The notes beneath the pieces were generated by a model. The model made no database searches and was not told the DNA's origin. It saw only the letters and a program-made list of their open reading frames with translations. From contig MNVE01000009.1 in the NCBI GenBank assembly GCA_001871475.1, forward strand, positions 13,114 through 77,113: a stretch of DNA of 64,000 bases, written 5' to 3'. The position numbers were made by a program, and so were the translations under genes. Within the stretch, counting starts at the first letter, position 1; every line of letters begins with the position of its first letter. Below are positions 31,641 to 61,272 of the stretch, piece by piece. The stretch is from Candidatus Micrarchaeota archaeon CG1_02_47_40 (GTDB lineage: Archaea > Micrarchaeota > Micrarchaeia > Anstonellales > CG1-02-47-40).

Positions 31641-31731
31641 AGAGCTAGAATTTGGGAGGGTGAAACCCTTTCTTTTTGGGGGTGAAGCCCTCAGCACCTT
31701 TTTCTTTTGGAAAGAAAAAGGGGCTATGGGA

Positions 31732-31749
31732 GGGTCGGACTTCTGCCCT
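31732..31749. promoter_or_regulatory. 18-bp motif GGGTCGGACTTCTGCCCT immediately upstream of a TATA-like box and the uvrB start; exact second copy at 36756-36773
   Basis: Exact 18-bp repeat read in the sequence. Both copies are followed by AT-rich TATA-like sequences (CTTATTAA / GGTTTAAAAG). Confidence 0.4.
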
Positions 31750-31771
31750 GCTAAAACTTATTAACGCAAAA

Positions 31772-33751
31772 ATGCCTAACCCTCTTATGACTCGCCTTAA
31801 GCTTCACTCCGATTTCTCACCTGCAGGAGACCAGCCAGAGGCAATAGGGAAGTTAGCGAAAGGAGTGGAAAAGGAAGGAATGCAAACTCTTCTTGGAGTA
31901 ACCGGCTCCGGCAAGACGTTCAGCATCGCCTCTGTACTTGCAAAAACAAACCGCACCGCGCTTGTAATCTCCCATAACAAAACCTTAGCAGCGCAGCTCT
32001 ACTCCGAATTTAGGGATTTTTTCCCTGAAAATAAGGTGGGCTATTTCGTTTCTTATTATGATTATTACCAGCCTGAAAGCTACATCCCCCAAAGCGACAC
32101 CTACATAGAGAAGGATGCGCAGGTGAATGAGAAAATAGAGAGGCTGCGCCTGGCGGCTACTGCTGCGCTTGCAGGCGGGGAGCCCTGCATAATAGTTGCG
32201 ACCGTCTCCTGCATTTATGGAATCGGCTCTCCGGAAGAATGGAAAAAGATGACGTTTGAGATAAGGAAGGGGGCAAGGATTGCGAGGAGTTCTTTTTTGG
32301 CAAAGCTTGTTTCCATGCAGTATGAGCGGAATGACATGGCGCTTTCTTCGGGAAAATTCCGTGCGAAAGGAGATACTATAGAGATAATGCCAAGCTATTC
32401 CGAGGAAGTGGTTAGGGTGTCGCTCTCCGGGGATGGAGTGGAAAGCATAACTATTATGGACGGGCAGAACCGAAAAATGATAAGCACCCCTTCCTCCTTT
32501 ATTCTCTTTCCCGCAAAGCATTACCTCGTGCCGGAGGGGCAGAGGGAGAAGGCAATTAAGGAGATTGAGGCGGAATTGGAGCAGAGATTGCCGGAAATGG
32601 AGGAGATGAGCGCATACCGTCTTAAGACGAGAACGAAATATGATTTGGAGTTGATAAAGGAAATTGGATATTGCAACGGGATTGAGAATTACTCGCGGCA
32701 TTTTGACGGCAGAAATCCAGGAGAGCCTCCTTACTGCCTTCTTGATTACCTTCCCAAAGATGCGCTTGTAGTGATAGATGAATCGCACGTAACCCTCCCC
32801 CAACTGCACGGGATGCAGAAAGGAGACCGCTCGCGCAAGAAGGCGCTTATAGATTACGGCTTCCGCCTTCCGAGCGCATACGACAACCGTCCGCTTACAT
32901 TTGAGGAGTTTGAAGGGAAGCTGAAAGGGAAAAGTGCCATCTTTGTTTCAGCAACGCCTGCGGAATATGAGCGCACTCGTTCTTCTCAAATAGTAGAGCA
33001 GTTGGTGCGCCCCACAGGCCTGCTTGACCCGTCTGTAGAGGTGCGCCCAACATTCGGGCAGGTTGAGGATTTGATTAAAGAGGTGAAGAACAGGGCAGAG
33101 GCAGGCGAGCGAACTCTTGTAACCACCCTCACGAAAAGAATGGCAGAGGATTTGGCGGAGAGATTGGTAAGCGAGGGGGTTAAGGCGCGCTATCTTCATG
33201 CGGAGATAGAGACATTGCAAAGAAGCGAGATAATACGGCAGTTGCGCCTTGGGGAGTTTGACTGCCTTGTGGGGATAAATCTTTTGAGGGAGGGATTGGA
33301 CTTGCCGGAAGTGAGCCTTGTTGCGATATTTGACGCGGATAAGCAGGGGTTTTTGAGAACGGAAACAAGTTTGATACAGACGATTGGGAGGACTGCACGC
33401 AATCTGAATGCGCACGCGATAATGTATGCAGATGGAATAAGTGAGGCGATGCAAAAGGCGATTGATGAAACTGAAAGACGGAGGAAGGTGCAGGAGGAGT
33501 ACAATAGGGAGCATGGCATAACTCCGAAAAGCATCGTGAAGAAGATAAAGGAGAGAATAAGCGCTTATGAAGAGGAAGGGAAGGGGAAAGGAAGGGAGGA
33601 AGAAAGGCTGGAATTGGAAGAGGAGATAATAATTTTAGAGGAGGAAATGAAACAGGCGGCTGAAACACTTGAATTTGAGAAGGCGATTGAGCTCCGGGAC
33701 AGGTTATCTGAATTGAAGAGGATGAAAAAAGGAAGGAGAAAGAAAAGCTGA
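31772..33751 (+). CDS. uvrB: excinuclease ABC subunit B
   Basis: GVTGSGKTF Walker A, helicase motifs, and a C-terminal UVR domain (EFEKAIELRDRL). Confidence 0.95.
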   Translation: MPNPLMTRLKLHSDFSPAGDQPEAIGKLAKGVEKEGMQTLLGVTGSGKTFSIASVLAKTNRTALVISHNKTLAAQLYSEFRDFFPENKVGYFVSYYDYYQPESYIPQSDTYIEKDAQVNEKIERLRLAATAALAGGEPCIIVATVSCIYGIGSPEEWKKMTFEIRKGARIARSSFLAKLVSMQYERNDMALSSGKFRAKGDTIEIMPSYSEEVVRVSLSGDGVESITIMDGQNRKMISTPSSFILFPAKHYLVPEGQREKAIKEIEAELEQRLPEMEEMSAYRLKTRTKYDLELIKEIGYCNGIENYSRHFDGRNPGEPPYCLLDYLPKDALVVIDESHVTLPQLHGMQKGDRSRKKALIDYGFRLPSAYDNRPLTFEEFEGKLKGKSAIFVSATPAEYERTRSSQIVEQLVRPTGLLDPSVEVRPTFGQVEDLIKEVKNRAEAGERTLVTTLTKRMAEDLAERLVSEGVKARYLHAEIETLQRSEIIRQLRLGEFDCLVGINLLREGLDLPEVSLVAIFDADKQGFLRTETSLIQTIGRTARNLNAHAIMYADGISEAMQKAIDETERRRKVQEEYNREHGITPKSIVKKIKERISAYEEEGKGKGREEERLELEEEIIILEEEMKQAAETLEFEKAIELRDRLSELKRMKKGRRKKS

Positions 33752-33838: not shown

Positions 33839-33907
33839 CAACAGCGAAGCTGTTGGGCCGTGTCCGCAAGGACACGTAGTGCGAGAGCGTGATGAATATG
33901 CAAAATA
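33839..33907. repeat. double-hairpin element (CAACAGC-GAAG-GCTGTTG and CGTGTCC-GCAA-GGACACG) flanked by imperfect ~30-bp direct repeats of the uvrA 5' end
   Basis: 33809-33838 (ataattgtccgcggagcgcgcgagcataac) resembles 33908-33936 (the uvrA start). The two hairpins lie between. Confidence 0.5.
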
Positions 33908-36708
33908 TAGTAATACGCGGAGCGCGCGAGCATAATCTGAAAAATATTGATGTTGATATTCCAAGGGATTCCCTTACGGTAATTACCGGCATTTCGGGAA
34001 GCGGCAAAAGCACTCTTGCATTTGACACTATTTACGCGGAAGGGCAGAGAAGGTACGTTGAATCCCTCTCCACCTACGCAAGGCAGTTTCTTGGGATAAT
34101 GGGAAAGCCGGATGTGGATTCTATAGAAGGGCTTTCCCCTGCCATTTCCATAGAACAAAAAGTAAGCGGGAAAAACCCCCGCTCTACTGTTGGCACGATG
34201 ACGGAAATTTACGATTACATGAGGCTCTTGTGGGCAAGAGTAGGAAAGCCCCACTGCCCAAAATGCGGTATTGAAATCGCAAGCCAGACCCCGCAGGCGA
34301 TTGTGGAGAATATAATGAAGGGAAATGAAGGGCAGAAGCTGGAGATACTCTCCCCGATTGTGCAGGGGAAAAAGGGGGAGTATGCGAAATTGCTTGAGAG
34401 ATTATCTGAAAGGGGATTTTCCCGCGCAAGGGTGGATGGGGAGGCGTGCGAGCTATCGCAAGCCCCGCCTCTGAAAAAACAGCAGAAGCATACGATAGAA
34501 GTGCTTGTGGACAGGTTGGCAATAATTGAAGCGGAAAAGAGCAGAATTTTTGAAGCGGTGCAGACTGCGCTGAAGGAAAGCGGGGGGGCGGTGATTGCAA
34601 AAATCGGAAAGGAGGAAAAACTGTTCTCGCAGAAAAATGCCTGCCTTAACTGCGGCATTTCTGTAGGCGAATTGGAGCCTCGGATGTTTTCATTCAATTC
34701 CCCTTATGGCGCATGCGAGGAGTGCCATGGCTTGGGAGTTAAGATGGAATTTGTGCCGGAGTTGGTAATTCCGGATATGGGAAAATGCATTGCGGATGGT
34801 GGGGTTGTTCCCTGGCAGAGCGCTGTTGGAAGCTATAGGGGGAGGATGCTGGAGGCGCTTGGCAAAAAGCTTGGCTTTGATATGTACACTCCGCTTAAGG
34901 ATATTGGAGAAGAGAACCTGCGCATAATACTCTACGGAACGGAAGAGAAAGTAAAATACAAGTTCAAATCAAGGAATGGAAATTCTTCTTTTGAGTATGA
35001 AGGCGGGTTTGAGGGGGTTGTGCCAAATTTAGAGAGATTGCATAAAGAAACGAAATCCGAATGGAGAAAGGAGGAGATTGCAAAATTCATACGCGAGAGC
35101 ACCTGCCCTAAATGCTGCGGGAAAAGATTGATGGAAAATGTGCTTGCGGTGAAAATACAGGAGAAATCAATAATGGATGTTTGCGAGCTTCCAATAGGAA
35201 AAGCAGGGGAATTTTTCAAGGGGCTGAAAACAGAGGGAAACGAAGCGATTATTGCTTCACCTGTGCTGAAAGAGATAAGGGAAAGGCTTGGATTTTTGGT
35301 GAATGTGGGCGTGCCTTATCTTACCCTCTCGCGCATTTCAGGCACGCTTTCAGGGGGGGAGATGCAGAGAATACGGCTTGCCACGCAAATCGGCTCAATG
35401 CTTACGGGTGTGGTGTATGTGCTTGACGAACCCAGTATAGGCCTGCACCAAAAGGACAACGGGATGCTGATAAAGACGCTGAAATCCCTGCGGGATTTGG
35501 GAAATACTCTTTTAGTGGTGGAGCATGACGAGGAGACGATGAGAAATGCGGATTATGTGGTGGATATGGGGCCCGGTGCAGGGGAAGCGGGAGGGAGAGT
35601 AGTGGTTGCAGGGAACGTGAAGGATATTGAGAAATGTGAAGAGTCGCTGACTGGAAAATACCTTTCAGGAAAGCTGAAAATACCGATTCCACAGAAGAGG
35701 AGAAGGAGCAGTAAGTTTCTGATTATTCGCGGGTGCGGGGAAAACAACCTGAAAGACATTGATGTTTCCTTTCCCCTTGGGACTTTCACCTGCGTTACCG
35801 GCGTTTCCGGAAGCGGAAAAAGCACGCTTGTGAATGAAACTCTGCACAAGGGGCTTGCGCAGAAAATATACGGCTCAAGGGAAAGGGCGGGAAAGTTTGA
35901 GAAATTTGAGGGGCTGGATTATATTGATAAGGCAGTTTGCATAGACCAGAATCCGATTGGAAGGACGCCAAGAAGCAATCCCGCAACTTATACTGGTGTT
36001 TTTACTCCCATACGCGAGTTGTTTGCAAAAACTCCTTCTGCGCGCATAAAGGGATATTCTGCCGGGAAATTCTCCTTTAATGTTGAGGGGGGAAGATGCG
36101 AGAAATGCGAAGGGGCAGGAATGCAGAGAATAGAAATGAATTTCCTGCCTGATATATTCGTGCCCTGTGAGGAATGCCAGGGGAAACGGTATAATTCGGA
36201 GGCGCTTTCCATAACTTACAAGGAGAAGAATATTTCTGATGTTTTGAGTATGAGCGTGGATGAAGCTGCCGCGTTTTTTGAGAACATTCCGCAGATTAGG
36301 GAGAAGCTCAAAACTCTGCGGGATGTGGGGCTTGGGTATGTGAAGCTTGGGCAGAGCGCAACCACGCTTTCCGGAGGGGAGGCGCAGAGGGTGAAGCTCT
36401 CAAGCGAGCTTTCAAAGAGGGGGACGGGAAAAACAATTTACATTCTTGATGAGCCGACTGTGGGACTGCACTTTGCGGATGTTGCAAAACTGCTTGATGT
36501 GCTTGTCAGATTGGTGGAGAAGGAGAATACGGTGATTGTTATAGAGCATAATCTGGATGTGATTAAGTGCGCGGATTATGTTATTGATTTGGGTCCGGAA
36601 GGAGGGGAGGGAGGCGGGAGAGTAGTTGCGCTTGGGACTCCGGAAGAGGTTGCGCAAAACAATAAAAGCTGTACAGGAGAGTATCTGAAGGGAGTATTGA
36701 AGTCATGA
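33889..36708 (+). CDS. uvrA: excinuclease ABC subunit A
   Basis: Two ABC ATPase modules (GISGSGKST, GVSGSGKST), zinc-finger Cys clusters, 939 aa. Confidence 0.95.
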   Translation: MMNMQNIVIRGAREHNLKNIDVDIPRDSLTVITGISGSGKSTLAFDTIYAEGQRRYVESLSTYARQFLGIMGKPDVDSIEGLSPAISIEQKVSGKNPRSTVGTMTEIYDYMRLLWARVGKPHCPKCGIEIASQTPQAIVENIMKGNEGQKLEILSPIVQGKKGEYAKLLERLSERGFSRARVDGEACELSQAPPLKKQQKHTIEVLVDRLAIIEAEKSRIFEAVQTALKESGGAVIAKIGKEEKLFSQKNACLNCGISVGELEPRMFSFNSPYGACEECHGLGVKMEFVPELVIPDMGKCIADGGVVPWQSAVGSYRGRMLEALGKKLGFDMYTPLKDIGEENLRIILYGTEEKVKYKFKSRNGNSSFEYEGGFEGVVPNLERLHKETKSEWRKEEIAKFIRESTCPKCCGKRLMENVLAVKIQEKSIMDVCELPIGKAGEFFKGLKTEGNEAIIASPVLKEIRERLGFLVNVGVPYLTLSRISGTLSGGEMQRIRLATQIGSMLTGVVYVLDEPSIGLHQKDNGMLIKTLKSLRDLGNTLLVVEHDEETMRNADYVVDMGPGAGEAGGRVVVAGNVKDIEKCEESLTGKYLSGKLKIPIPQKRRRSSKFLIIRGCGENNLKDIDVSFPLGTFTCVTGVSGSGKSTLVNETLHKGLAQKIYGSRERAGKFEKFEGLDYIDKAVCIDQNPIGRTPRSNPATYTGVFTPIRELFAKTPSARIKGYSAGKFSFNVEGGRCEKCEGAGMQRIEMNFLPDIFVPCEECQGKRYNSEALSITYKEKNISDVLSMSVDEAAAFFENIPQIREKLKTLRDVGLGYVKLGQSATTLSGGEAQRVKLSSELSKRGTGKTIYILDEPTVGLHFADVAKLLDVLVRLVEKENTVIVIEHNLDVIKCADYVIDLGPEGGEGGGRVVALGTPEEVAQNNKSCTGEYLKGVLKS

Positions 36709-36755: not shown

Positions 36756-36773
36756 GGGTCGGACTTCTGCCCT
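36756..36773. promoter_or_regulatory. second copy of the GGGTCGGACTTCTGCCCT motif, upstream of a TATA-like GGTTTAAAAG and the dcm start
   Basis: Exact match to 31732-31749. Confidence 0.4.
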
Positions 36774-36839
36774 AATAAGGTTTAAAAGAGAGGGAAGAAC
36801 AGCAATCATTGCAAGACGTAAATTATTGAGGCGGAATGG

Positions 36840-37916
36840 ATGAAAACTGAAATAAGAGTTATGTCGCTTTTCTCCGGCTGCGGAGGGATGGATTTGGGCT
36901 TCCTTTTGGCAGAGCATCCGCTTTACGAGTATAAAATGGTGTGGGCTAATGATTTTGAGAAATGGGCTTGCGCGACATACAAAAGAAATCTTAAGCATGA
37001 AATTGTCTGCGGAGATATTTGGAATGTTGACTTGGACAAAACGCCGCCGGCAGACGTAGTTATAGGGGGCTTCCCCTGCGAAGATTTCTCAATTCTTAGA
37101 GGCGATACGCGCCCAGGCTTTGAATCAAAAAGAGGCCTGCTTTATACTAAATTCGTTGAGGCAGTATCAAAAAAACAGCCTTTGTTTTTTGCAGCTGAAA
37201 ATGTCAGGGGGCTGTTAAGCGCACACGGAGGGTGGGCAATTAAAAAGATAAAAGAAGATTTTGAAAAAGTAGACCACATCGGGTATAATGTTGAATATAA
37301 ACTCATTAATCTCGCGGATTACGGCGTGCCTCAAAACAGGCAAAGAGTGATTATAGTAGGAATTAGAAATGATTTGAACCTTAAATTTGTCTTCCCGCAG
37401 CCGACGCATAAAGATAGGCATGTCAATACAAGAACTGCTCTTGAAGGAGTTGAAAAAGTTAAGTTAAATAATGAAAAATTGAGAATGCTTGATTCTACAA
37501 AAAAGAAAATTGAAAGAATTCCTCCGGGCGGAAACTATAAAGATTTAGCTGAATATTCAGGAAGAAACTGGATGAGCCTGATATACAAACGGCTGCATCC
37601 TGACGAACCTTCGCCTACAATAGTCGCCTGCGGAGGAGGCGGAACTTGGGGCTACCATTATTCTGAACCAAGACCTCTGACAAACAGGGAAAGGGCGCGG
37701 CTGCAGACATTCCCTGATAATTTTCAATTTTTAGGACCGGTGGGAGAGGTCAGAAAGCAGATAGGAAATGCTGTTCCGCCTTTAGGAATAAAACCTGTGG
37801 CGGAGCGGATTTTGGAAATGTTCAGCAGCTTGAAAGACGCTCAACATGAGGCTGCCTGCGCATTGGCTGCGGAAAAATGCCAAAAAATTGAGGCAGCTTC
37901 AGCTCTTGCCCGATAG
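36840..37916 (+). CDS. dcm: DNA (cytosine-5)-methyltransferase
   Basis: Motif I FSGCGGMDLGF, motif IV GGFPCEDFS and ENV motif VI. Confidence 0.9.
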   Translation: MKTEIRVMSLFSGCGGMDLGFLLAEHPLYEYKMVWANDFEKWACATYKRNLKHEIVCGDIWNVDLDKTPPADVVIGGFPCEDFSILRGDTRPGFESKRGLLYTKFVEAVSKKQPLFFAAENVRGLLSAHGGWAIKKIKEDFEKVDHIGYNVEYKLINLADYGVPQNRQRVIIVGIRNDLNLKFVFPQPTHKDRHVNTRTALEGVEKVKLNNEKLRMLDSTKKKIERIPPGGNYKDLAEYSGRNWMSLIYKRLHPDEPSPTIVACGGGGTWGYHYSEPRPLTNRERARLQTFPDNFQFLGPVGEVRKQIGNAVPPLGIKPVAERILEMFSSLKDAQHEAACALAAEKCQKIEAASALAR

Positions 37917-38294
37917 TCCAGCGCATGCCCGTTCAATATTCTTCTTGATTTGATGCTCCCAGATTATTTTGACTTTCCATCCATGTTTCTTCAGCGCTTG
38001 TATGCTCCGTTTGTCCCTCAATCTGTTGTTTCTTATTTTCGGCAGCCAGTAGCTCCTGTTTGTTTTCGGCTCTTTATAGCATTTTGGGCAGGCATGCCAG
38101 AAGCAGCCATGAAGGAAAACGGCAGTTTTGCTTTTAGGAAGAAGTATATCCGGACTGCCTCGCATTTTAGGATGCATTCTGCAGGTTATATTCCGCTGCT
38201 TCAAAAATCTTCGGACTAATCTTTCCTGAACCGTCCATCTGCTGCGGATTTTTGACATTGTCCTGCTGCGCTGGGTTTTGGTGAGATTATCCAT
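37899..38294 (-). CDS. vsr: very short patch repair endonuclease
   Basis: FLHGCFWHAC motif. 131 aa. Convergent with and overlapping the dcm 3' end. Confidence 0.85.
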   Translation of the reverse strand: MDNLTKTQRSRTMSKIRSRWTVQERLVRRFLKQRNITCRMHPKMRGSPDILLPKSKTAVFLHGCFWHACPKCYKEPKTNRSYWLPKIRNNRLRDKRSIQALKKHGWKVKIIWEHQIKKNIERACAGLSGKS

Positions 38295-38339
38295 GCTGCG
38301 AACCTGCTGATTTTTAAGATAGATGGCATTTATATCAAT

Positions 38340-39182
38340 ATGGACGAAGAAGAATACGGCGCAAAACAGGCATGCAAATATCTCGGCATTTCGGATTCTT
38401 TTCTGAAGAACAGCAAAGAGATACCTATTTTCAAAAAAGGAAGAAAACGGGTCTGCTCAAAACAGTCTTTGGATGAATGGAAAGCTGCACGCGAAAAAAG
38501 AACTCTGCTGCTTGATGTGCGTGACTATGCCAAATGCTTTGATTTCGCACTCGCAATGCATTACAGAGGGTATACTGCTGCAGATTGGGGCACTTCAAGG
38601 AAAAGAGAAGCGGGGCAGAACCTGACAAACTGGATTAGAGGGCAGCTTGGAGAGATTGCAGTTCAAAAATTCTTAAAGAGGGATTTTAATTTGGATGTTG
38701 AGTTGGATTTTGACCTGCATGATGAGATTGTTCCGCAGGATATTATAGGAGTCAAGGAAAAATCAGGGATTAGAGAACCTAAAATAAGAGTCGCAGTCAA
38801 AGCTACAAAGTTTCGGAACAGCTGGCTTATACTTGGAACCGCAGATGTTGAGCCTGCAAACAGGCAGTCTGACGCATATATTCTCACTAGAATTGACCTG
38901 CCTGACGACCACCTCATCAGAATTGCAAAGAAGGAGCTTAAAGAACTGCTGAAGAATGAAAAGCATTTTGGAAGCTATAGGGAAAAATTGGCTGATTTTG
39001 AACCGGTTCCCTGCGAAGTTGCGGGTTTTGCATACCGCAATGAACTTGAAAAAGTTGAGGACACGGCAAGACTCGCGGGAATTTTAGGTACACGGAATCC
39101 GACAGGAGCCAGATATGTGAAAGTGTCGGGAGAACTACGGATTTCAAAGGAAGATTGGAACGAACTGATTAAACGCATATAG
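38340..39182 (+). CDS. HTH (excisionase/MerR-like) domain protein with possible PD-(D/E)xK nuclease core; candidate restriction endonuclease partner of Dcm
   Basis: N-terminal AKQACKYLGIS...VCSKQSLDEWK HTH. The central region contains GEIAV...PQD(134)...K(154/157)...E(170), a weak nuclease-like pattern. It is adjacent to dcm/vsr. Confidence 0.3.
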   Translation: MDEEEYGAKQACKYLGISDSFLKNSKEIPIFKKGRKRVCSKQSLDEWKAAREKRTLLLDVRDYAKCFDFALAMHYRGYTAADWGTSRKREAGQNLTNWIRGQLGEIAVQKFLKRDFNLDVELDFDLHDEIVPQDIIGVKEKSGIREPKIRVAVKATKFRNSWLILGTADVEPANRQSDAYILTRIDLPDDHLIRIAKKELKELLKNEKHFGSYREKLADFEPVPCEVAGFAYRNELEKVEDTARLAGILGTRNPTGARYVKVSGELRISKEDWNELIKRI

Positions 39183-39190
39183 GCGGATTT

Positions 39191-39916
39191 ATGGCAAATC
39201 TTGCGCGAATTACAAGAAAGCACATGGAAGAGGAGGAAACAGGAGGTACGGGTGAGCTTCTGCGCCAGACAATTTTAGGGGGGCAGGATGGATTAGTGAA
39301 TGTGCTGGGAATAGTGCTTGGTGTTGCGGCAGCCACTTCCGATGCAAGGATGGTGCTGGTGGCGGGGTTTGCCGCAGCGTTTGCGGAATCGGTTTCAATG
39401 GCGGCGGTTGCGTATACTTCCACAAGAGCTGAACAAGACCATTACAGGAGAATGCTCGCGGTTGAAAAGTATGAAATGGAAAACCTGCCGGACATAGAAA
39501 GGGAAGAGATAAGGATGATTTACAGGAAGAAGGGGTTTTGGGGAAAGGATTTGGAGAGAGTGGTGAAGGTAATCACCGGCAATAAGAAGATGTGGCTGGA
39601 TGTAATGATGAAGGAGGAGCTTGGATTGGTGGATGTTGGGGGAATAAAGCCGAAGAATGAGGCTCTTGTTGTTGGTGTTTCTTCCTTTATCGGCTCTCTT
39701 CTTCCTTTGCTTGCATTTTTGGTGCTGCCTATTTCCTCTGCTTTTTTTGCGGCTATCGCCATCTCGCTTGTTATACTTTTTGCAGCAGGGATGGTTAAGG
39801 GGAAGCTGACTACTGGAAAGATACTGCATGATGGAGTGGAGATGGCAGTTATTGGAGGGCTGGCGGCGATTGTAGGATATCTGGTTGGCACGCTTGCAGG
39901 CGCAGCCGGGCTGTAA
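39191..39916 (+). CDS. VIT1/CCC1-family iron/manganese transporter
   Basis: QDGLVNVLGIVLGVAAAT motif and a C-terminal TM bundle. Confidence 0.7.
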   Translation: MANLARITRKHMEEEETGGTGELLRQTILGGQDGLVNVLGIVLGVAAATSDARMVLVAGFAAAFAESVSMAAVAYTSTRAEQDHYRRMLAVEKYEMENLPDIEREEIRMIYRKKGFWGKDLERVVKVITGNKKMWLDVMMKEELGLVDVGGIKPKNEALVVGVSSFIGSLLPLLAFLVLPISSAFFAAIAISLVILFAAGMVKGKLTTGKILHDGVEMAVIGGLAAIVGYLVGTLAGAAGL

Positions 39917-39929
39917 GGCGGTGCGGAAG

Positions 39930-41513
39930 ATGCGGCACTCTGCAAAAGACATTCCTTCCTCCCCTGGCGTCTATCTGATGAAAGGGAGCAGAGGGGAAAT
40001 AATCTACATAGGAAAGGCAAAGAACCTCCGCGAGAGGGTGGGAAGCTACTTTTCAGGTGAACAAGAGGGAAAGACTGCAAGGATGGTTGGAGAGATTAAA
40101 GATATTGATTTCATAGTCACGGATAATGAAACGGAAGCGCTCATCCTGGAAGCAAGCCTGATAAGGCAGAATAAGCCCAAGTATAATGTTGATTTGAGGG
40201 ATTCGGAGAGATTCACTTACATTATTTTCAGCAATGAAAGATTTGCAAGAATTTTTCTTGCGCGCAATCCAACAGCTTCAAGATGCGCGCGTGCAGGCAG
40301 TAAAGTTTTCGGTCCTTTCGCAAAAGGAAGCGCGCGCATACTCGTTGTGGACACCCTGCGCAAAATATTTGGGCTTCGCACCTGTAGAAATATGCCAAGG
40401 CGGGCATGTTTGCAATACCATATGGGAAACTGCACCGCGCCATGCGAGGGAAGAGTAGGGGAGAGAAAATATGCGGAGAAGGTAAAGGAAGTTGAGAAAG
40501 TGCTTTCCGGAAAAGGAGGGGGGTATGAGGGATTGCTGGAAAAGCTGAAGGGAGAGATGGAGTATGAAGCAGGAAAAAGGAATTTTGAAAGGGCTGCGAA
40601 ACTGCGGGACAGCCTGCGTGTTCTTGAAGGATTGCAGGAGAGGCAGAAAATAGAAAGGGTTGATGGAAAAGATGAGGATTATTTGTATTATGCCCGGAAT
40701 GCCAAAGGCGCCGTTTCATTGCAGATGTTCCGCGTGATTGGGGGAGTGATAAAGGAAAGAGAGAAGCACTCCTTTGAGGCGGAAAAAGGAAAGGAATTGG
40801 AGGAGTTTATGCTTGCGCATTATGCCGAAGGAAACATTCCGCAGAAGATTTACGTGCAGGAGGAATTTGGGGGAAGGAAGGCACTTGAAGGGTATCTTGG
40901 AGGGATTGCAGGCAGCAGAGTCGCAATAACTGTTCCGCAAAAAGGGGATAAGAAAAAACTGCTGGAATTGCTCGCAAAGAACATGGAAAGTGAGATACCT
41001 GTTGCACTCGTAAAACTCCGGCGCGCACTTTCCCTGCGTGAAATTCCGAGGGTTATAGAGTGCTTTGACGTTTCAAACCTTGGGAAGGAAGGAATTGTAG
41101 GAGCGATGGTGCGCTTTGTTGATGGGAAGCCGGACAAGGGGAATTACAGGAAATTTAAGATAAAGGAAGTGAAGGGGCAGGATGATTTTGCCTCTATGAA
41201 GGAAATAGTGTTCAGGAGGTATTTGAGATTGGGCAGGGAGAATGCAGAAATGCCGAATTTGGTGCTCGTGGATGGGGGGGTTGGACAGCTAAACAGCGCA
41301 ATGAAGGCGCTTTCAGAGCTGGGAGTGGATTTGGAGTGTATTTCACTTGCAAAGGAAGAGGAAAAAGTCTACTCGCCGAAATTTTCACAGCCCATCGCCC
41401 TGCCGAAAACGGATGAGGGGCTCAAAATACTCATGCACGCGCGGGATGAGGCGCACAGGTTTGCGATTTCATATCAAAGGAAGGTAAGGGGCAGAAGTTC
41501 GGGAATTGCTTAA
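39930..41513 (+). CDS. uvrC: excinuclease ABC subunit C
   Basis: N-terminal GIY-YIG (PGVYLMKG...IYIGKAKNLRERV), UVR domain, and the C-terminal endonuclease V/HhH region. Confidence 0.9.
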   Translation: MRHSAKDIPSSPGVYLMKGSRGEIIYIGKAKNLRERVGSYFSGEQEGKTARMVGEIKDIDFIVTDNETEALILEASLIRQNKPKYNVDLRDSERFTYIIFSNERFARIFLARNPTASRCARAGSKVFGPFAKGSARILVVDTLRKIFGLRTCRNMPRRACLQYHMGNCTAPCEGRVGERKYAEKVKEVEKVLSGKGGGYEGLLEKLKGEMEYEAGKRNFERAAKLRDSLRVLEGLQERQKIERVDGKDEDYLYYARNAKGAVSLQMFRVIGGVIKEREKHSFEAEKGKELEEFMLAHYAEGNIPQKIYVQEEFGGRKALEGYLGGIAGSRVAITVPQKGDKKKLLELLAKNMESEIPVALVKLRRALSLREIPRVIECFDVSNLGKEGIVGAMVRFVDGKPDKGNYRKFKIKEVKGQDDFASMKEIVFRRYLRLGRENAEMPNLVLVDGGVGQLNSAMKALSELGVDLECISLAKEEEKVYSPKFSQPIALPKTDEGLKILMHARDEAHRFAISYQRKVRGRSSGIA

Positions 41514-42301: not shown

Positions 42302-43645
42302 ATGCCTAAAATACCCTTTATGGAAATAGAAGGCATTGCAAAGCAGAACCCTTGGTGGGGGAACCCCAAAGGATGGGAAGGGCAGGACAGGCACTTTAGG
42401 CTCTTGGAAAATTATAAGTATGTGTATGAGAGGGAGGGCTATCTTCCGGCAAAGGAGGGGGTGGTTGTCCTCTACGGTCCGAGGCAGATCGGAAAGACTA
42501 CCTGGATAAAGAGAAGAATAGCAAACCTTCTGAAAACCTGTAAATCAACGGAGATATTCTACCTGAATGCCGAAACAGTCAGGGACAGGTTTGAGCTGTA
42601 TGAGGCGGTAAAGACTGCCGGTGGGCTATATTCCCCAAAATACATTTTCATTGACGAGATAAACGCGATAGCTGACTGGGAGAGGGGGATAAAGGCGCTT
42701 GTGGATGAAGGGGCTTTTGAAGGGAAATGCGCGCTTTTGAGCGGCTCAAGCTCCCTTAACATAATGAAAAAATCAGAGCGGCTTCCCGGAAGGCTGGCAA
42801 AGGGAAAGAACAAATACAGGTTTTACCCGCTCTCTTTCGCGGAATCGGCAAGGCTTTACGGGATGGAGTTTAAGGATGCAAAATCCGCGCTTGCCGGGCT
42901 GGATAAGCTGAACCCCCTCCTTTACAGATATTTCATACACGGCGGATTTATCCGGGCGCAGAATGCTCTTGAAGAAAAAGGAAGGCTGGACGAGGAGCTG
43001 TTTTCGGTGTATTCTGCGTGGATTGACGGGGAGCTTGCAAAAGTGAAAAAATCACCTGAAATCACGACTGGTATAATGGACGGAGCTGCCAATGCACTGA
43101 CGAATGAAACTACTTGGAGTGCAATCAGCAGAAGCGCAAGCCACCCGACAATAGCGGAGTATGTTGAGACTCTTAAGGACATGTTCGTGTTCGGATACAT
43201 AGAGAAATCAAGACGGGCAAAGGAGGGGATGCCCAAAAACAAGAAGATTTACTTTTCTGACCCTTTTCTTTACTGGCTTGCGCTTTATCGGGGCAGAAAG
43301 ATTGACGGCGCGGGAGTGGAGGATTTGGGTTTGGAAACCTGCGGAAAGCTTGCGGAGCTGTGCGTTTATTCCTGCCTGGTTGATTTTCTTGATGGGCAGA
43401 AGCAGGAGAGCGACTTTGAGCCGCGAAGGTATATTCATTTTGAGAGGGGGGAGGAAGGAGAGATTGATTTTTGCGTTAGACATGAGGGGAAGACTTATTT
43501 CCTTGAGTCAAAATTCGGGAAGGTGGAAAAGGAAAAGAAGGGAGTTATTTACATAACCAAAAATCAGTTCGGCAGGAATAAGATACCTTTGGCGGTTTTT
43601 CTTCTGCATCCTCTTGGAAGTTTGGAGCTGTGCAGGGCAGTTTAG
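42302..43645 (+). CDS. AAA_14/DUF4143-family ATPase
   Basis: Walker A LYGPRQIGKTT and Walker B IFIDEIN. The C-terminal region is DUF4143-like. Confidence 0.65.
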   Translation: MPKIPFMEIEGIAKQNPWWGNPKGWEGQDRHFRLLENYKYVYEREGYLPAKEGVVVLYGPRQIGKTTWIKRRIANLLKTCKSTEIFYLNAETVRDRFELYEAVKTAGGLYSPKYIFIDEINAIADWERGIKALVDEGAFEGKCALLSGSSSLNIMKKSERLPGRLAKGKNKYRFYPLSFAESARLYGMEFKDAKSALAGLDKLNPLLYRYFIHGGFIRAQNALEEKGRLDEELFSVYSAWIDGELAKVKKSPEITTGIMDGAANALTNETTWSAISRSASHPTIAEYVETLKDMFVFGYIEKSRRAKEGMPKNKKIYFSDPFLYWLALYRGRKIDGAGVEDLGLETCGKLAELCVYSCLVDFLDGQKQESDFEPRRYIHFERGEEGEIDFCVRHEGKTYFLESKFGKVEKEKKGVIYITKNQFGRNKIPLAVFLLHPLGSLELCRAV

Positions 43646-59178: not shown

Positions 59179-59904
59179 TTAAAAATCCATTTTGATTTTC
59201 TCTTTAGCGGAATATAATTCAGGCAAGTGCTTTTCGCTTATTCTGAAACCAGCCCCATGGTCCCTAACTGATCCATTTTCTTTAATGTGCATGCGAAATT
59301 CCCAAACAATCACGCCATCAAGCAGCAGCTGTTCAAAATTCTCTTCGCTTAAATCGGAAAGGAAATAAGCTTCAGTATAATGGAATTGCTCTTTGCGTCT
59401 TTTCTTTCGTGTTTCGGCAAACACTATCAGCAGATTTTGGGATAATTTTTCTTTTATCTTGCCCATTAATTCTTTGATTTCAAAATAGCAAACGGCCCCA
59501 TTTTTTTTATGAATTATGTTAATCCTGTTGAGGGGCTTATTAATTTCCAATTTGAGCCTGTGCGTATTAAAATCAACGGCAGTAATTGTCACCTTTAATC
59601 CTTGTCTGCCTTTTGCGTCAGAATAGCCATATTTTCTTATTATTTTTTCGGCAGATAATGGATTCCAATGAGGCGATTTTGTTATCAAAGTCACTCTAGA
59701 ACTGGCAGTTGCTCGCTGGGATTTCAACTCTATTATTCGTCCTTCAAACTGAAAATCATTGGAAACGTTGTTTTCAGGTATGCCGAATAGCTCTTCAAGA
59801 GTTTTGCCTATGCCCGTGTTTCCTGAACGAAGCGATTCTATAAAACCCAATTTATAGATTCCCTTGAGCTTTTTTCTGAAATTTATAACTGGAAGCTTGC
59901 CCAT
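59179..59904 (-). CDS. MvaI/BcnI-family type IIP restriction endonuclease
   Basis: The C-terminal block IVFAETRKKRRKEQFHYTEAYFL...DGVIVWEF...RDHGAGFRI matches remembered BcnI/MvaI conserved blocks. Adjacent to a convergently arranged methyltransferase. Confidence 0.55.
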   Translation of the reverse strand: MGKLPVINFRKKLKGIYKLGFIESLRSGNTGIGKTLEELFGIPENNVSNDFQFEGRIIELKSQRATASSRVTLITKSPHWNPLSAEKIIRKYGYSDAKGRQGLKVTITAVDFNTHRLKLEINKPLNRINIIHKKNGAVCYFEIKELMGKIKEKLSQNLLIVFAETRKKRRKEQFHYTEAYFLSDLSEENFEQLLLDGVIVWEFRMHIKENGSVRDHGAGFRISEKHLPELYSAKEKIKMDF

Positions 59905-59946
59905 AGCGGGGCTTGCTCAATACAGAGTTATAAACCGCACACGCGC

Positions 59947-61272
59947 CTATTTGCGCACCACAATAATACTCTCTTTGTCCATAGTCCTCCCAACAATTCC
60001 CGCTTCATTTGTGGGGCTGTTGATTAGGGGAATTGTTTTATATGGAATATTTCTGCCGTTGTTCTCAATAGTTTCAAAGCCGATTTCCTCGCATAATTCC
60101 GAGGTTATGGTGCTTGAAGGGATAGATGTTTCTTTAACTGTCCTATTGCCGATTACTATGCCGGCAACCCCGTCTTTACGTAAAACTCGGTGCATTTGCT
60201 TGTAAACGTCATTTAGGTCTACAAAAAACCATGCTACTTCTTCGGCACGCTGAATATCCTTGCTAGCGATCGATTTAAGCACTTTATCAAGCGATTTAGA
60301 TTTTAAGGAGTAGTCGTAATTCTTCCTTAATGAGCCGCCTAAACTGGCTTTATCTAATTTAGTAATTTCCTCGTAACTTCCAATCTCATCGCAGTCTAGC
60401 CCTAACCATTGAAGAGAAAGCCTGGAAAATTGACCGTATGCTACTGTTGTTCTGCTGTCGCCATAAGGAGGGGAGGTGACTATAAGGTCAATGCTATTGT
60501 CTTTGATTATATTTTTTGTATATCTTGCGTCGGCTTTGTAAACACGGCAATGGCTTTGTAAATTGGTGGATTGGTTAAATTCCAGCAGACAGGACATTGA
60601 TTTTTTGAGCGCTTCTTTGAATATTTTCATAGTATTTGGATTGTGTTTTTCCAGGAGAGTTGGAGAATAACGGTATAACTTAAATTCGCCTGAGCGTGTG
60701 TTTGAAGCTTTGCGGACAGTTAATGAAAATGGAACTAAAAGAAAATTTCGTATTTCTTTATCCTCAACTTTAAAGATTTGCTCCCGAATTATCGCTAAAT
60801 CTGATATTATTTGGGGTTTAAACCAGAATTCTATATTCCCGAAATCTGGAGGAGATGGCTTTCGTTTATTTGACGTATCAAACTTGTTAAATTGAGAATT
60901 TAATTTTTCAAGAAACTCAAAAACTTGTTTCTTTAAATAATTGGTTTCAATTGGCGTTGTTTTCACTTTGGAGAGCAGGATAGCCAGGGGATTGAGGTCT
61001 GTTCCAATAGCCTGCCTTTCTGACAGCACTGCTTCCACAAGAACCGTGCCGCTGCCGCACATTGGGTCATAAACAAGCTCATCTGTTTGAGAGTATTTTT
61101 TTATCAGCTTTTCGGCTATCTGCGGCACCATCCTGGCAGGATAAGTATGCATGCCGTGAGTATTATGCCGTGTATCTGCTGTTTCAAAATCCCAATCTTC
61201 GGTCTTTTGGATTTGAACAACTGCCTGCCCGGAGGAATACATCTCAAGAGTTGAATCTTTCATGTTTTCCAT
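59947..61272 (-). CDS. N4-cytosine/N6-adenine DNA methyltransferase
   Basis: Motif I VYDPMCGSGT and motif IV TSPPYGD (SPPY). Confidence 0.8.
   Translation of the reverse strand: MENMKDSTLEMYSSGQAVVQIQKTEDWDFETADTRHNTHGMHTYPARMVPQIAEKLIKKYSQTDELVYDPMCGSGTVLVEAVLSERQAIGTDLNPLAILLSKVKTTPIETNYLKKQVFEFLEKLNSQFNKFDTSNKRKPSPPDFGNIEFWFKPQIISDLAIIREQIFKVEDKEIRNFLLVPFSLTVRKASNTRSGEFKLYRYSPTLLEKHNPNTMKIFKEALKKSMSCLLEFNQSTNLQSHCRVYKADARYTKNIIKDNSIDLIVTSPPYGDSRTTVAYGQFSRLSLQWLGLDCDEIGSYEEITKLDKASLGGSLRKNYDYSLKSKSLDKVLKSIASKDIQRAEEVAWFFVDLNDVYKQMHRVLRKDGVAGIVIGNRTVKETSIPSSTITSELCEEIGFETIENNGRNIPYKTIPLINSPTNEAGIVGRTMDKESIIVVRK

What the first reader, a model, noticed from the sequence alone, without database searches (positions are those of the whole stretch)
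36756..39916. Dcm-Vsr-(HTH/nuclease-like)-VIT cassette interrupting the uvrB-uvrA ... uvrC cluster
uvrB and uvrA are adjacent but uvrC lies about 3.2 kb further on, separated by a C5-methyltransferase, a convergent Vsr mismatch endonuclease, a 280-aa HTH protein with a weak PD-(D/E)xK-like pattern, and a VIT-family transporter. Dcm plus Vsr is the classic CCWGG methylation/repair pair. The adjacent gene is a candidate cognate restriction enzyme (PspGI/EcoRII-C-like enzymes cut CCWGG) but could equally be a regulator. Together with the MvaI/BcnI-like system at 59-61 kb, the cell may carry two R-M systems aimed at overlapping CCNGG-type sites.
Basis: partly seen in the sequence, partly recalled or inferred. 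Interest (0 to 1): 0.5.

Follow-up and report, generated by a model that had tools for sequence, protein, structure and literature searches.

The report
TseI-like restriction-modification cassette with Vsr

Summary
The genes are where the finding says: uvrB, uvrA, C5-methyltransferase (M), convergent Vsr, a 280-aa HTH protein, VIT, uvrC. The contig matches Candidatus Micrarchaeota archaeon CG1_02_47_40.

The 280-aa protein is a restriction endonuclease, not a regulator:
- It is homologous to R.TseI (GCWGC): BLASTP E 2e-16; profile-profile probability 99.9%, E 1.7e-32.
- Its AlphaFold model (pLDDT 92.6) has an excisionase-type winged HTH followed by a PD-(D/E)xK core.
- About 70 relatives with room beside the gene all have a C5-MTase adjacent. 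About half have Vsr. None has VIT.

The MTase belongs to the GC-N-GC group (NgoFVII and TseI partners), not Dcm. In relatives, GCWGC is the single most avoided site: hosts O/E 0.34-0.41, cassettes 0.14-0.26. CCWGG is unremarkable. So this is a TseI/ApeKI-type R-M-V module, and the CCWGG/PspGI/EcoRII reading is not supported. A separate MvaI/BcnI system at 59-61 kb is real, but the two systems do not share a CCNGG-type target.

One anomaly remains. The window's own cassette carries 19 GCWGC sites (about 6 expected), whereas most relatives carry 0-1 (the closest has 5). Its host genes show no depletion. This may reflect relaxed restriction, a central-base shift or Vsr-biased repair. This is a new, uncharacterised member of a known kind, of modest interest.

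The parts
36840..37916 (+). C5 cytosine DNA methyltransferase (M), 358 aa. It belongs to the GC-N-GC TRD group and has a lineage-specific Ala-rich C-terminal tail (about residues 330-358).
   Evidence: PF00145 E 7.6e-72 and TIGR00675 231 bits. PADLOC MTase_II PDLC03378 E 3.4e-107. 100% identical to a protein of Ca. Micrarchaeota archaeon CG1_02_47_40. 46.7% identical over its full length to the N. gonorrhoeae MTase whose neighbour is RE_NgoFVII. It shares its TRD motifs with the TseI-type partner MTase.
37899..38294 (-). Vsr very-short-patch T:G mismatch endonuclease, 131 aa, convergent with M (18-nt 3' overlap) and divergent from R.
   Evidence: PF03852 E 1.9e-19; TIGR00632 111.8 bits (cut-off 97.85). 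The G-x-PD, GCFWH-x-C, RD and WEH motifs are conserved with relatives. Vsr is present in about half of related cassettes.
38295..38339 (.). 45-bp divergent intergenic region between vsr and R. It contains an A/T-rich TTTTTAAGATA box about 21-31 nt upstream of the R start codon (possible archaeal TATA box for a leaderless mRNA) and one GCTGC site abutting the vsr start.
   Evidence: Sequence read directly. The promoter assignment is inference only.
38340..39182 (+). Type IIP restriction endonuclease (R), 280 aa. It is a compact member of the TseI/ApeKI family: an N-terminal excisionase/MerR-type winged HTH (residues about 5-53) followed by a PD-(D/E)xK nuclease core. Residues invariant in both families are E105, D134, K154, K157 and S177.
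37825..38299 (.). Cluster of 11 GCWGC sites (19 in the whole cassette, 36840-39182). This is anomalous compared with most relatives, which carry 0-1 (the closest, L088, has 5).

Best explanation
The region 36840-39182 is a three-gene Type II restriction-modification cassette of the TseI/ApeKI kind, with a Vsr repair accessory. VIT is a host gene and not part of it.

Mechanism (inferred from the families):
- M transfers a methyl group from SAM to C5 of a cytosine in a GC-N-GC-type site, most likely GCWGC, on both strands.
- R is a Mg2+-dependent PD-(D/E)xK enzyme, expected to be homodimeric like TseI. It should cut unmethylated G^CWGC on incoming DNA and leave 3-nt 5' overhangs.
- Vsr nicks 5' of the T in T:G mismatches created when the 5-methylcytosine deaminates. 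This starts short-patch repair that restores the site and prevents C-to-T decay.

Shown here: gene identities, homology of R to TseI, the PD-(D/E)xK fold, obligatory R-M linkage across about 70 loci, and strong GCWGC-specific avoidance in relatives. Inferred: the exact site and cleavage position for this copy, dimerisation, which cytosine is methylated, the role of the N-terminal HTH, and that the cassette is an insertion into a uvr cluster.
For: (1) R is homologous to R.TseI (P0247, UniRef G3JXD0). BLASTP gives E 2e-16. Profile-profile comparison gives 99.9% probability, E 1.7e-32, over nearly the full length. R and a Thermus TseI homologue (47% identical to TseI) hit the same PADLOC REase model, PDLC03411. 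TseI cuts G^CWGC as a homodimer (PMC3643589).
(3) R is adjacent to a C5 MTase in every related locus with room, in two different arrangements and with unrelated flanks. Twenty-one CPR-type loci also have a C-protein-like HTH_3 gene directly upstream of R. Even the distant Thermus homologue sits next to a C5 MTase.
(4) The MTase TRD type is shared with NgoFVII-type and TseI-type partner MTases.
(5) Across 71 independent host loci (502 kb), GCWGC is the most depleted of all 4-mer palindromes and 5-mer interrupted palindromes. Markov O/E is 0.34 (z -17.5), with 53 of 69 loci below 0.5. GCSGC is 0.91 and CCWGG 0.71. The codon-aware null gives 0.41 for CPR hosts, 0.26 for CPR cassettes and 0.14 for DPANN-type cassettes, while control motifs stay near 1.
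(6) Positive control: a Thermus plasmid with a TseI-like system has 3 GCWGC against 22.7 expected.
(7) R looks intact. All family-invariant residues are present, only three conservative differences occur at columns that are at least 85% conserved, and amino-acid identity to relatives exceeds nucleotide identity.
Confidence: 0.72

Rival explanations
1. Same family, but this copy no longer restricts GCWGC. Either R is silent or attenuated and M+Vsr persist as a domesticated methylation/repair pair, or the central-base preference has shifted (for example towards GCSGC or GCNGC).
For: The window's cassette has 19 GCWGC sites (codon-aware expectation about 6; M 9 vs 3.4, V 5 vs 0.9) and only 2 GCSGC (7 expected). 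This is the mirror image of every relative (GCWGC 0.14-0.26, GCSGC 1.3-1.5). The closest relative, L088, is intermediate with 5 sites. Host genes show no GCWGC depletion. The MTase is as similar to GCSGC-type (NgoFVII) partners as to any GCWGC-type partner.
Against: R keeps every invariant residue and differs only conservatively at conserved columns. Host GCSGC is not depleted either (1.19). The counts in a 2.3-kb cassette are small. Site richness is harmless as long as M is active, so it does not by itself imply loss or change of restriction.
Confidence: 0.17
2. One reading: a Dcm/Vsr CCWGG methylation-repair pair with a PspGI/EcoRII-C-like CCWGG restriction enzyme.
For: A C5 MTase plus Vsr is the architecture known from E. 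coli dcm-vsr. CCWGG is mildly under-represented in the window (O/E 0.61-0.66). That could instead be due to the MvaI/BcnI system at 59-61 kb.
Against: The Dcm model NF007772 scores 54 bits against a cut-off of 710. The MTase's full-length relatives pair with NgoFVII- and TseI-type enzymes. R is a TseI homologue and has no Pfam or PDB match to EcoRII/PspGI/Ecl18kI. In hosts of relatives, CCWGG is not specifically avoided (0.71 Markov, 0.93 codon-aware) whereas GCWGC is.
Confidence: 0.03
3. The 280-aa protein is a DNA-binding regulator (excisionase/MerR-like HTH) of the M-Vsr pair and not a nuclease.
Against: Residues 55-280 form a PD-(D/E)xK fold and are homologous to the biochemically characterised nuclease TseI. 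The invariant acidic and lysine residues are conserved across both families. CPR-type cassettes carry both this protein and a separate C-like HTH_3 gene.
Confidence: 0.03
4. A GGCC (HaeIII-like) system, suggested by M.HaeIII being the best solved-structure match and by strong GGCC depletion in the window.
For: M.HaeIII is the top PDB sequence hit (E 2.4e-39). GGCC O/E is 0.19-0.23 in the window.
Against: The HaeIII match covers only the catalytic N-terminal half (residues 7-188), not the TRD. GGCC is not specifically depleted in hosts of relatives (0.71 Markov, 1.10 codon-aware). R is unrelated to the HaeIII/NgoPII families in Pfam. The window avoids several 4-bp palindromes at once (GATC, TCGA, GTAC, CTAG), which points to other systems or community-level pressure.
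Confidence: 0.02

Closest known systems
TseI (Thermus sp. 93170) / ApeKI (Aeropyrum pernix K1) Type IIP R-M systems, G^CWGC with an m5C methyltransferase
   Same: R is homologous to R.TseI over almost its whole length and hits the same PADLOC model. Its partner is a C5 MTase (M.ApeKI is a C5 MTase for GCWGC; PMC8557920). Relatives' genomes specifically avoid GCWGC, as does a Thermus plasmid with a TseI-like system.
   Different: R is 280 aa against 378 aa for TseI, only 31% identical in the core, and lacks TseI's insertions in the C-terminal half. The partner MTase is about 350 aa, against 458 aa in Thermus and about 56 kDa for M.ApeKI. This subfamily is confined to uncultured DPANN archaea, Patescibacteria and a few other MAG lineages, and every member is unannotated. 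The repair accessory is Vsr here, whereas the Thermus plasmid has an HhH-GPD glycosylase. This copy is rich in GCWGC sites.
E. coli Dcm-Vsr (CCWGG methylation plus very-short-patch repair), and 5mC R-M systems with an associated vsr (e.g. HpaII, from my own knowledge)
   Same: A C5 MTase with an adjacent, overlapping vsr gene. Vsr is a bona fide family member, and the logic of repairing 5mC deamination damage at the methylated site is the same.
   Different: The MTase is not a Dcm orthologue (54 bits against a 710 cut-off) and its TRD is of GC-N-GC type. Here vsr is convergent with M, and a cognate REase is present.
NgoFVII/NgoAVII system (GCSGC-type m5C MTase with a PLD-family REase)
   Same: The MTases are 47-50% identical over the full length, including the TRD.
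   Different: The REase is completely different (PLD plus B3-like domains against PD-(D/E)xK). The central-base preference is S there; for this family, avoidance in relatives indicates W.
PspGI / EcoRII-C / Ecl18kI and MvaI / BcnI (enzymes for interrupted 5-bp palindromes of CCNGG type)
   Same: They also recognise 5-bp quasi-palindromes with a degenerate central base pair. An MvaI/BcnI member lies in the same window at 59179-59904.
   Different: No detectable sequence or fold-level relationship beyond the generic PD-(D/E)xK core. The TseI paper already noted the lack of similarity.

Membership tests
TseI/ApeKI restriction endonuclease family | Significant sequence homology to R.TseI across the catalytic core | tested here: met
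   BLASTP 31% over 169 aa, E 2e-16. hhalign probability 99.9%, E 1.7e-32, 258 columns. Shared PADLOC model PDLC03411.
TseI/ApeKI restriction endonuclease family | Genetic linkage to a C5 cytosine methyltransferase | tested here: met
   Adjacent in the window and in every related locus with room beside the gene. The Thermus TseI homologue is also next to a C5 MTase.
TseI/ApeKI restriction endonuclease family | Recognition of GCWGC and cleavage G^CWGC | tested here: inconclusive
   There is no biochemistry. Indirectly, relatives' hosts and cassettes avoid GCWGC specifically (O/E 0.14-0.41). The window's own host genes do not (1.03), and its cassette is enriched (19 sites).
TseI/ApeKI restriction endonuclease family | Homodimeric enzyme | not testable with these tools
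   TseI is a homodimer by gel filtration (PMC3643589). Only a monomer model was made here.
PD-(D/E)xK nuclease superfamily | Alpha-beta-beta-beta-alpha-beta core fold | tested here: met
PD-(D/E)xK nuclease superfamily | Canonical D...(D/E)-x-K catalytic motif | tested here: inconclusive
   Invariant P-Q-D134 lies at the start of a strand, and K154/K157 lie on the next long strand ([IV]K[AS][ST]K). E105 is invariant on the preceding helix, and position 168 is always D or E. The acidic residue of (D/E)xK appears to be replaced by A or S, as in S-x-K variants (Cfr10I/NgoMIV, from my own knowledge).
C5 cytosine DNA methyltransferase (Type II) | Pfam/TIGRFAM model above cut-off with conserved motifs I, IV, VI, VIII, IX and X | tested here: met
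   PF00145 242.9 bits; TIGR00675 231.5 bits (cut-off 100.65). Motifs FSGCGG, PCE/PCQ/PCN-DFS, ENV, QxRxR, TxRExARxQxFPD and GNAVPP are seen in the alignment. PCE in motif IV is shared with several relatives, so it is not a defect.
E. coli-type Dcm (CCWGG) methyltransferase | Scores above the Dcm subfamily model cut-off / Dcm-type TRD | tested here: not met
   NF007772 scores 54.1 bits against a cut-off of 710, matching residues 66-202 only. Shigella Dcm structures match only residues 68-185.
Vsr very-short-patch repair endonuclease | Family model above cut-off and conserved catalytic/intercalating motifs | tested here: met
   TIGR00632 111.8 bits against 97.85; PF03852 69.7 bits against 27. 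The PD, GCFWH-x-C, RD and WEH motifs are conserved.
EcoRII-C / PspGI / Ecl18kI (CCNGG-family) endonucleases | Sequence or close fold similarity to the family | tested here: not met

The most novel reading that the evidence does not exclude
In this Micrarchaeota lineage the TseI-like cassette has changed its relationship to its own target. Relatives purge GCWGC from the cassette, yet this copy has accumulated about three times the expected number of sites (and few GCSGC) while keeping an apparently intact nuclease. Several readings remain open: a natural switch of central-base specificity (W to S or N) within the TseI family; a domesticated M-Vsr pair with a silenced R sitting among NER genes; or a footprint of Vsr-biased mismatch correction creating methylation sites.
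Probability: 0.15. Interest if true: 0.5.

Novelty: new member of a known kind. Interest (0 to 1): 0.3.

Why it matters
It corrects the annotation. A family of about 140 'hypothetical proteins' in DPANN archaea and Patescibacteria can now be named as compact TseI/ApeKI-type restriction enzymes with a predicted GCWGC target. That is useful for REBASE-style annotation and for designing DNA that can enter these hard-to-transform organisms.

The high-confidence model also bears on a question left open in the TseI literature: whether TseI/ApeKI has a 'third fold'. The prediction is a PD-(D/E)xK core with an N-terminal winged HTH, unrelated in detail to PspGI/Ecl18kI or MvaI/BcnI.

The comparative site-avoidance approach shows that a specificity can be read from MAG contigs alone. 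The site-rich cassette in this window, and the C-protein/LexA-like versions in CPR bacteria, are small leads on how such cassettes are regulated and domesticated. Otherwise this is an ordinary R-M system.

Tried and rejected
1. GGCC/HaeIII hypothesis. It came from the best PDB hit and from GGCC depletion. I rejected it because the TRD is not matched and the depletion is not shared by relatives.
3. Pfam scanning of all 54 family members gave only HTH_17 and weak NOV_C hits, with no RE_* family.
5. The search for an 'empty site', using VIT relatives in metagenome contigs, gave nine loci, none with uvr genes. Insertion into a uvr cluster therefore remains untested.
6. No terminal repeats or target-site duplications were found around the cassette. 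The sigma-70/terminator scan is uninformative for an archaeon.
7. MTase TRD-only identity, tried as a way to separate W from S at the central base, does not discriminate.
8. The maximal-order Markov expectation for the window (GCWGC O/E 0.58) was superseded by a codon-aware shuffle (1.03). I report both.
9. Motif IV 'PCE' in M was considered a possible defect. I rejected that because several relatives share it.
10. A weak test for Vsr-biased repair gave GTWGC/GCWAC O/E 0.80 in window host genes against 0.99 in CPR hosts. This is suggestive only.
Full report
OBSERVATION.
- uvrB is at 31676-33751 and uvrA at 33889-36708. Both are NCBIfam equivalog hits.
- A C5 DNA methyltransferase, M, is at 36840-37916 (PF00145 E 7.6e-72; TIGR00675).
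- A convergent Vsr gene is at 37899-38294 on the minus strand (PF03852; TIGR00632 111.8 bits against a 97.85 cut-off). It overlaps the end of M by 18 nt.
- A 280-aa ORF is at 38340-39182, with an N-terminal HTH_17 (E 8.1e-09).
- A VIT1 transporter is at 39191-39916, and uvrC is at 39885-41513.
The MTase is 100% identical to a protein of 'Candidatus Micrarchaeota archaeon CG1_02_47_40', found on a contig of up to 231,582 bp, so the host is a DPANN archaeon. M, V and R have lower G+C (0.43-0.45) than uvrA/B/C and VIT (0.48-0.49).

THE 280-aa PROTEIN IS A RESTRICTION ENZYME OF THE TseI/ApeKI FAMILY. PADLOC gave the first hint: Type II REase model PDLC03411, E 3e-22, residues 38-198. The protein has about 140 homologues. 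Nearly all are about 280 aa, all those named are annotated 'hypothetical', and they come from DPANN archaea, Patescibacteria and a few other MAG lineages. There is no PDB sequence match.

tblastn against plasmids found weak relatives on Thermus plasmids. The 381-aa Thermus protein lies directly upstream of a 458-aa C5 MTase, and its own homologue list contains R.TseI itself (P0247, UniRef G3JXD0, 378 aa, 47% identity, E 2.5e-101). The window protein aligns directly to TseI: 31% identity over 169 residues, E 2e-16. The two family profiles align with 99.9% probability, E 1.7e-32, over 258 columns. Residues invariant in both families coincide (window/TseI): E105/E132, D134/D165, K154/K185, K157/K188, S177/S204.

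TseI is a homodimeric Type IIP enzyme that cuts G^CWGC. It is 'closely similar' to ApeKI, shows little similarity to PspGI/Ecl18kI or MvaI/BcnI, and its structure was unsolved in that 2013 paper (PMC3643589). No TseI-family chain appeared in the 2026 PDB copy searched here.

CONSERVED LINKAGE. In six relatives looked up individually and in 74 loci from GTDB species representatives, every locus with sequence available beside the gene has a C5 MTase next to it, usually less than 130 bp away. Two arrangements occur:
- The DPANN type, as in the window: M> <V R>, with MTases 65-76% identical to the window's.
- The CPR type: R> <M, with optional <V, and MTases 40-46% identical to the window's.
Vsr is present in about half of the loci. 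VIT is never present.

Flanking genes are almost never shared between loci. Transposase genes (L001, L008, L090) or large serine recombinase genes (six loci) lie nearby. In 21 CPR-type loci a 73-aa HTH_3 gene sits immediately upstream of R. It matches PADLOC control-protein models and is the classic C-protein arrangement. All this is the signature of a mobile Type II R-M module. It rules out the idea that the 280-aa protein is merely a regulator.

SPECIFICITY. The MTase is not Dcm: NF007772 scores 54 bits against a 710 cut-off. Its best solved relative, M.HaeIII, matches only the catalytic half. Its full-length relatives (42-50% identity, TRD included) are as follows:
- The N. gonorrhoeae MTase whose neighbour hits RE_NgoFVII plus RE_NgoFVII_C.
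- A Providencia plasmid MTase with an NgoFVII-like REase.
- A Geobacillus MTase with an AlwI-family REase and vsr.
In alignment, all of these and the Thermus TseI-type partner share one TRD type. From my own knowledge of REBASE, NgoFVII is of GCSGC type. So the core GC-N-GC is supported by the MTase, but TRD identity does not settle the central base.

The central W comes from two sources. The first is the REase homology to TseI. The second is comparative site avoidance. Over 71 non-redundant host loci (502 kb), GCWGC is the most depleted of all 4-bp palindromes and 5-bp interrupted palindromes. Markov O/E is 0.34, z -17.5, with 53 of 69 loci below 0.5. GCSGC is 0.91, CCWGG 0.71 and GGCC 0.71.

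A codon-aware null, which shuffles synonymous codons while keeping the protein sequence and codon usage, gives 0.41 for CPR hosts, 0.26 for CPR-type cassettes and 0.14 for DPANN-type cassettes. Control motifs stay near 1. A Thermus plasmid bearing a TseI-like system has 3 GCWGC against 22.7 expected. GCWGC m5C methyltransferases are commonly predicted in archaea, and M.ApeKI is experimentally a GCWGC C5 MTase (PMC8557920 and PMC11033074).

THE ANOMALY IN THIS WINDOW. The window's own copy does not follow the family pattern. The cassette holds 19 GCWGC sites in 2.34 kb, 11 of them between 37825 and 38299 (the M tail plus vsr). The codon-aware null expects about 6. M has 9 against 3.4, V has 5 against 0.9 and R has 4 against 1.6.

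Most relatives' cassettes hold 0-1 sites. The closest one, L088 (MTase 79% identical), holds 5. At the homologous positions relatives often differ by one base, for example TGT instead of TGC in the conserved Vsr GCFWH motif. They therefore remove sites by synonymous or near-synonymous choices, and this copy does not.

GCSGC is low in the window's cassette (2 against 7), the mirror image of the relatives. Host genes in the window show no GCWGC depletion under the codon-aware null (128 against 124). The Markov figure of 0.58 is probably inflated by codon periodicity.

Yet R has all invariant residues and only three conservative differences at well-conserved columns. M's PCE motif IV is shared with relatives, and Vsr is intact.

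I regard this as unexplained. The candidates are long vertical residence with fully efficient methylation (relaxed selection), attenuation or silencing of R, a shift in central-base preference, or Vsr-biased correction towards the methylated site. For the last, GTWGC/GCWAC O/E is 0.80 in window host genes, which is weak evidence.

MECHANISM (inferred from the families).
- M methylates C5 of a cytosine in GCWGC on both strands.
- R, as a Mg2+-dependent PD-(D/E)xK dimer, cuts unmethylated G^CWGC.
- Vsr nicks 5' of T in T:G mismatches left by 5mC deamination in that context and triggers short-patch repair.
The active site is probably E105...P-Q-D134...[IV]K154-[AS]-[ST]-K157, with a further acidic residue at position 168. 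The acidic position of (D/E)xK appears to be replaced by A or S, reminiscent of S-x-K variants. This assignment is inference.

R and vsr diverge from a 45-bp spacer that carries an A/T-rich box about 21-31 nt upstream of the R start. That would be compatible with a leaderless archaeal transcript, but this is speculative.

WHAT IS NOT PART OF IT. VIT has host-like composition, overlaps uvrC by 32 nt and is never linked to the module elsewhere. Whether the module, or VIT, was inserted into a once-contiguous uvrBAC cluster could not be tested. No relative with an empty site was found and no flanking repeats were seen.

The MvaI/BcnI-family REase at 59179-59904 and its N4/N6 MTase at 59947-61272 are real. 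They probably account for the mild CCWGG/CCSGG under-representation. The two systems do not target overlapping sites.

VERDICT. The proposed specificity and enzyme family are wrong. This is a compact, previously unannotated member of the known TseI/ApeKI kind. Interest is modest. The site-rich cassette and the accessory genes seen in CPR relatives are the only unusual aspects.

Noticed in passing
window 1-64000: Several 4-bp palindromes are extremely under-represented. Under the Markov model: GATC 8 observed against 170 expected, GGCC 33 against 175, TCGA 16 against 91, GTAC 26 against 93, CTAG 13 against 52. GATC (0.05) and GGCC (0.22) stay depleted under the codon-aware null. This suggests other R-M systems, in this genome or its community, that lie outside the window.
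   Followed up: partly
window 59179-61272 (-): A second Type II R-M system: an MvaI/BcnI-family REase (PF15515, E 5.8e-44; 241 aa) with a 441-aa N4/N6 methyltransferase (PF01555; PADLOC MTase_II E 4e-128). CCWGG O/E is 0.61-0.66 and CCSGG 0.70 in the window.
   Followed up: partly
L005, L006, L007, L019, L021 and about 30 other CPR-type loci (e.g. L005:6974-7630): In Patescibacteria and other bacteria the same R-M module usually carries a LexA-like gene (LexA_DNA_bind plus Peptidase_S24) on the far side of M/Vsr (33 loci). It often also has a 73-aa XRE-type C protein upstream of R (21 loci). Flanks beyond these genes are not conserved, so the LexA-like repressor seems to travel with the cassette. 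This could couple R-M expression to DNA damage.
   Followed up: partly
L011:6248-6955 (Thermus thermophilus plasmid pAA1-1c): The TseI-like R-M pair on Thermus plasmids is followed by an HhH-GPD glycosylase gene (PF00730, E 1.2e-11) instead of Vsr. It may be an analogous repair accessory for 5mC deamination (T:G glycosylase) in a thermophile.
   Followed up: no
window 37825-38299: Eleven GCWGC sites lie within 475 bp, covering the lineage-specific Ala-rich C-terminal tail of M (…AACALAAEKCQKIEAASALAR) and the whole vsr gene. One site abuts the vsr start codon in the divergent vsr/R spacer.
   Followed up: partly
window 42302-43645 (+): An AAA_14 / DUF4143 ATPase (447 aa) matches the PADLOC candidate defence family PDC-S01 (E 3.7e-24), 0.8 kb downstream of uvrC.
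   Followed up: no
window 39885-39916: The uvrC ORF, as listed from its first TTG start, overlaps the 3' end of the VIT gene by 32 nt, which suggests co-transcription of VIT and uvrC. VIT relatives elsewhere are never next to uvr genes.
   Followed up: partly
L083-L086 (Archaeoglobales, Aquificaceae, Thermocrinis MAGs): These are distant relatives (23-29% identity) of the 280-aa REase in thermophile MAGs. No MTase was detectable with the window's M at E 1e-5. They may belong to the longer TseI/ApeKI branch.
   Followed up: no
method note (window and loci): Maximal-order Markov and codon-aware nulls disagree for GCWGC in the window (0.58 against 1.03) but agree for CPR hosts (0.34 against 0.41). 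In coding-dense DNA, Markov expectations for 5-mers can overstate depletion.
   Followed up: yes
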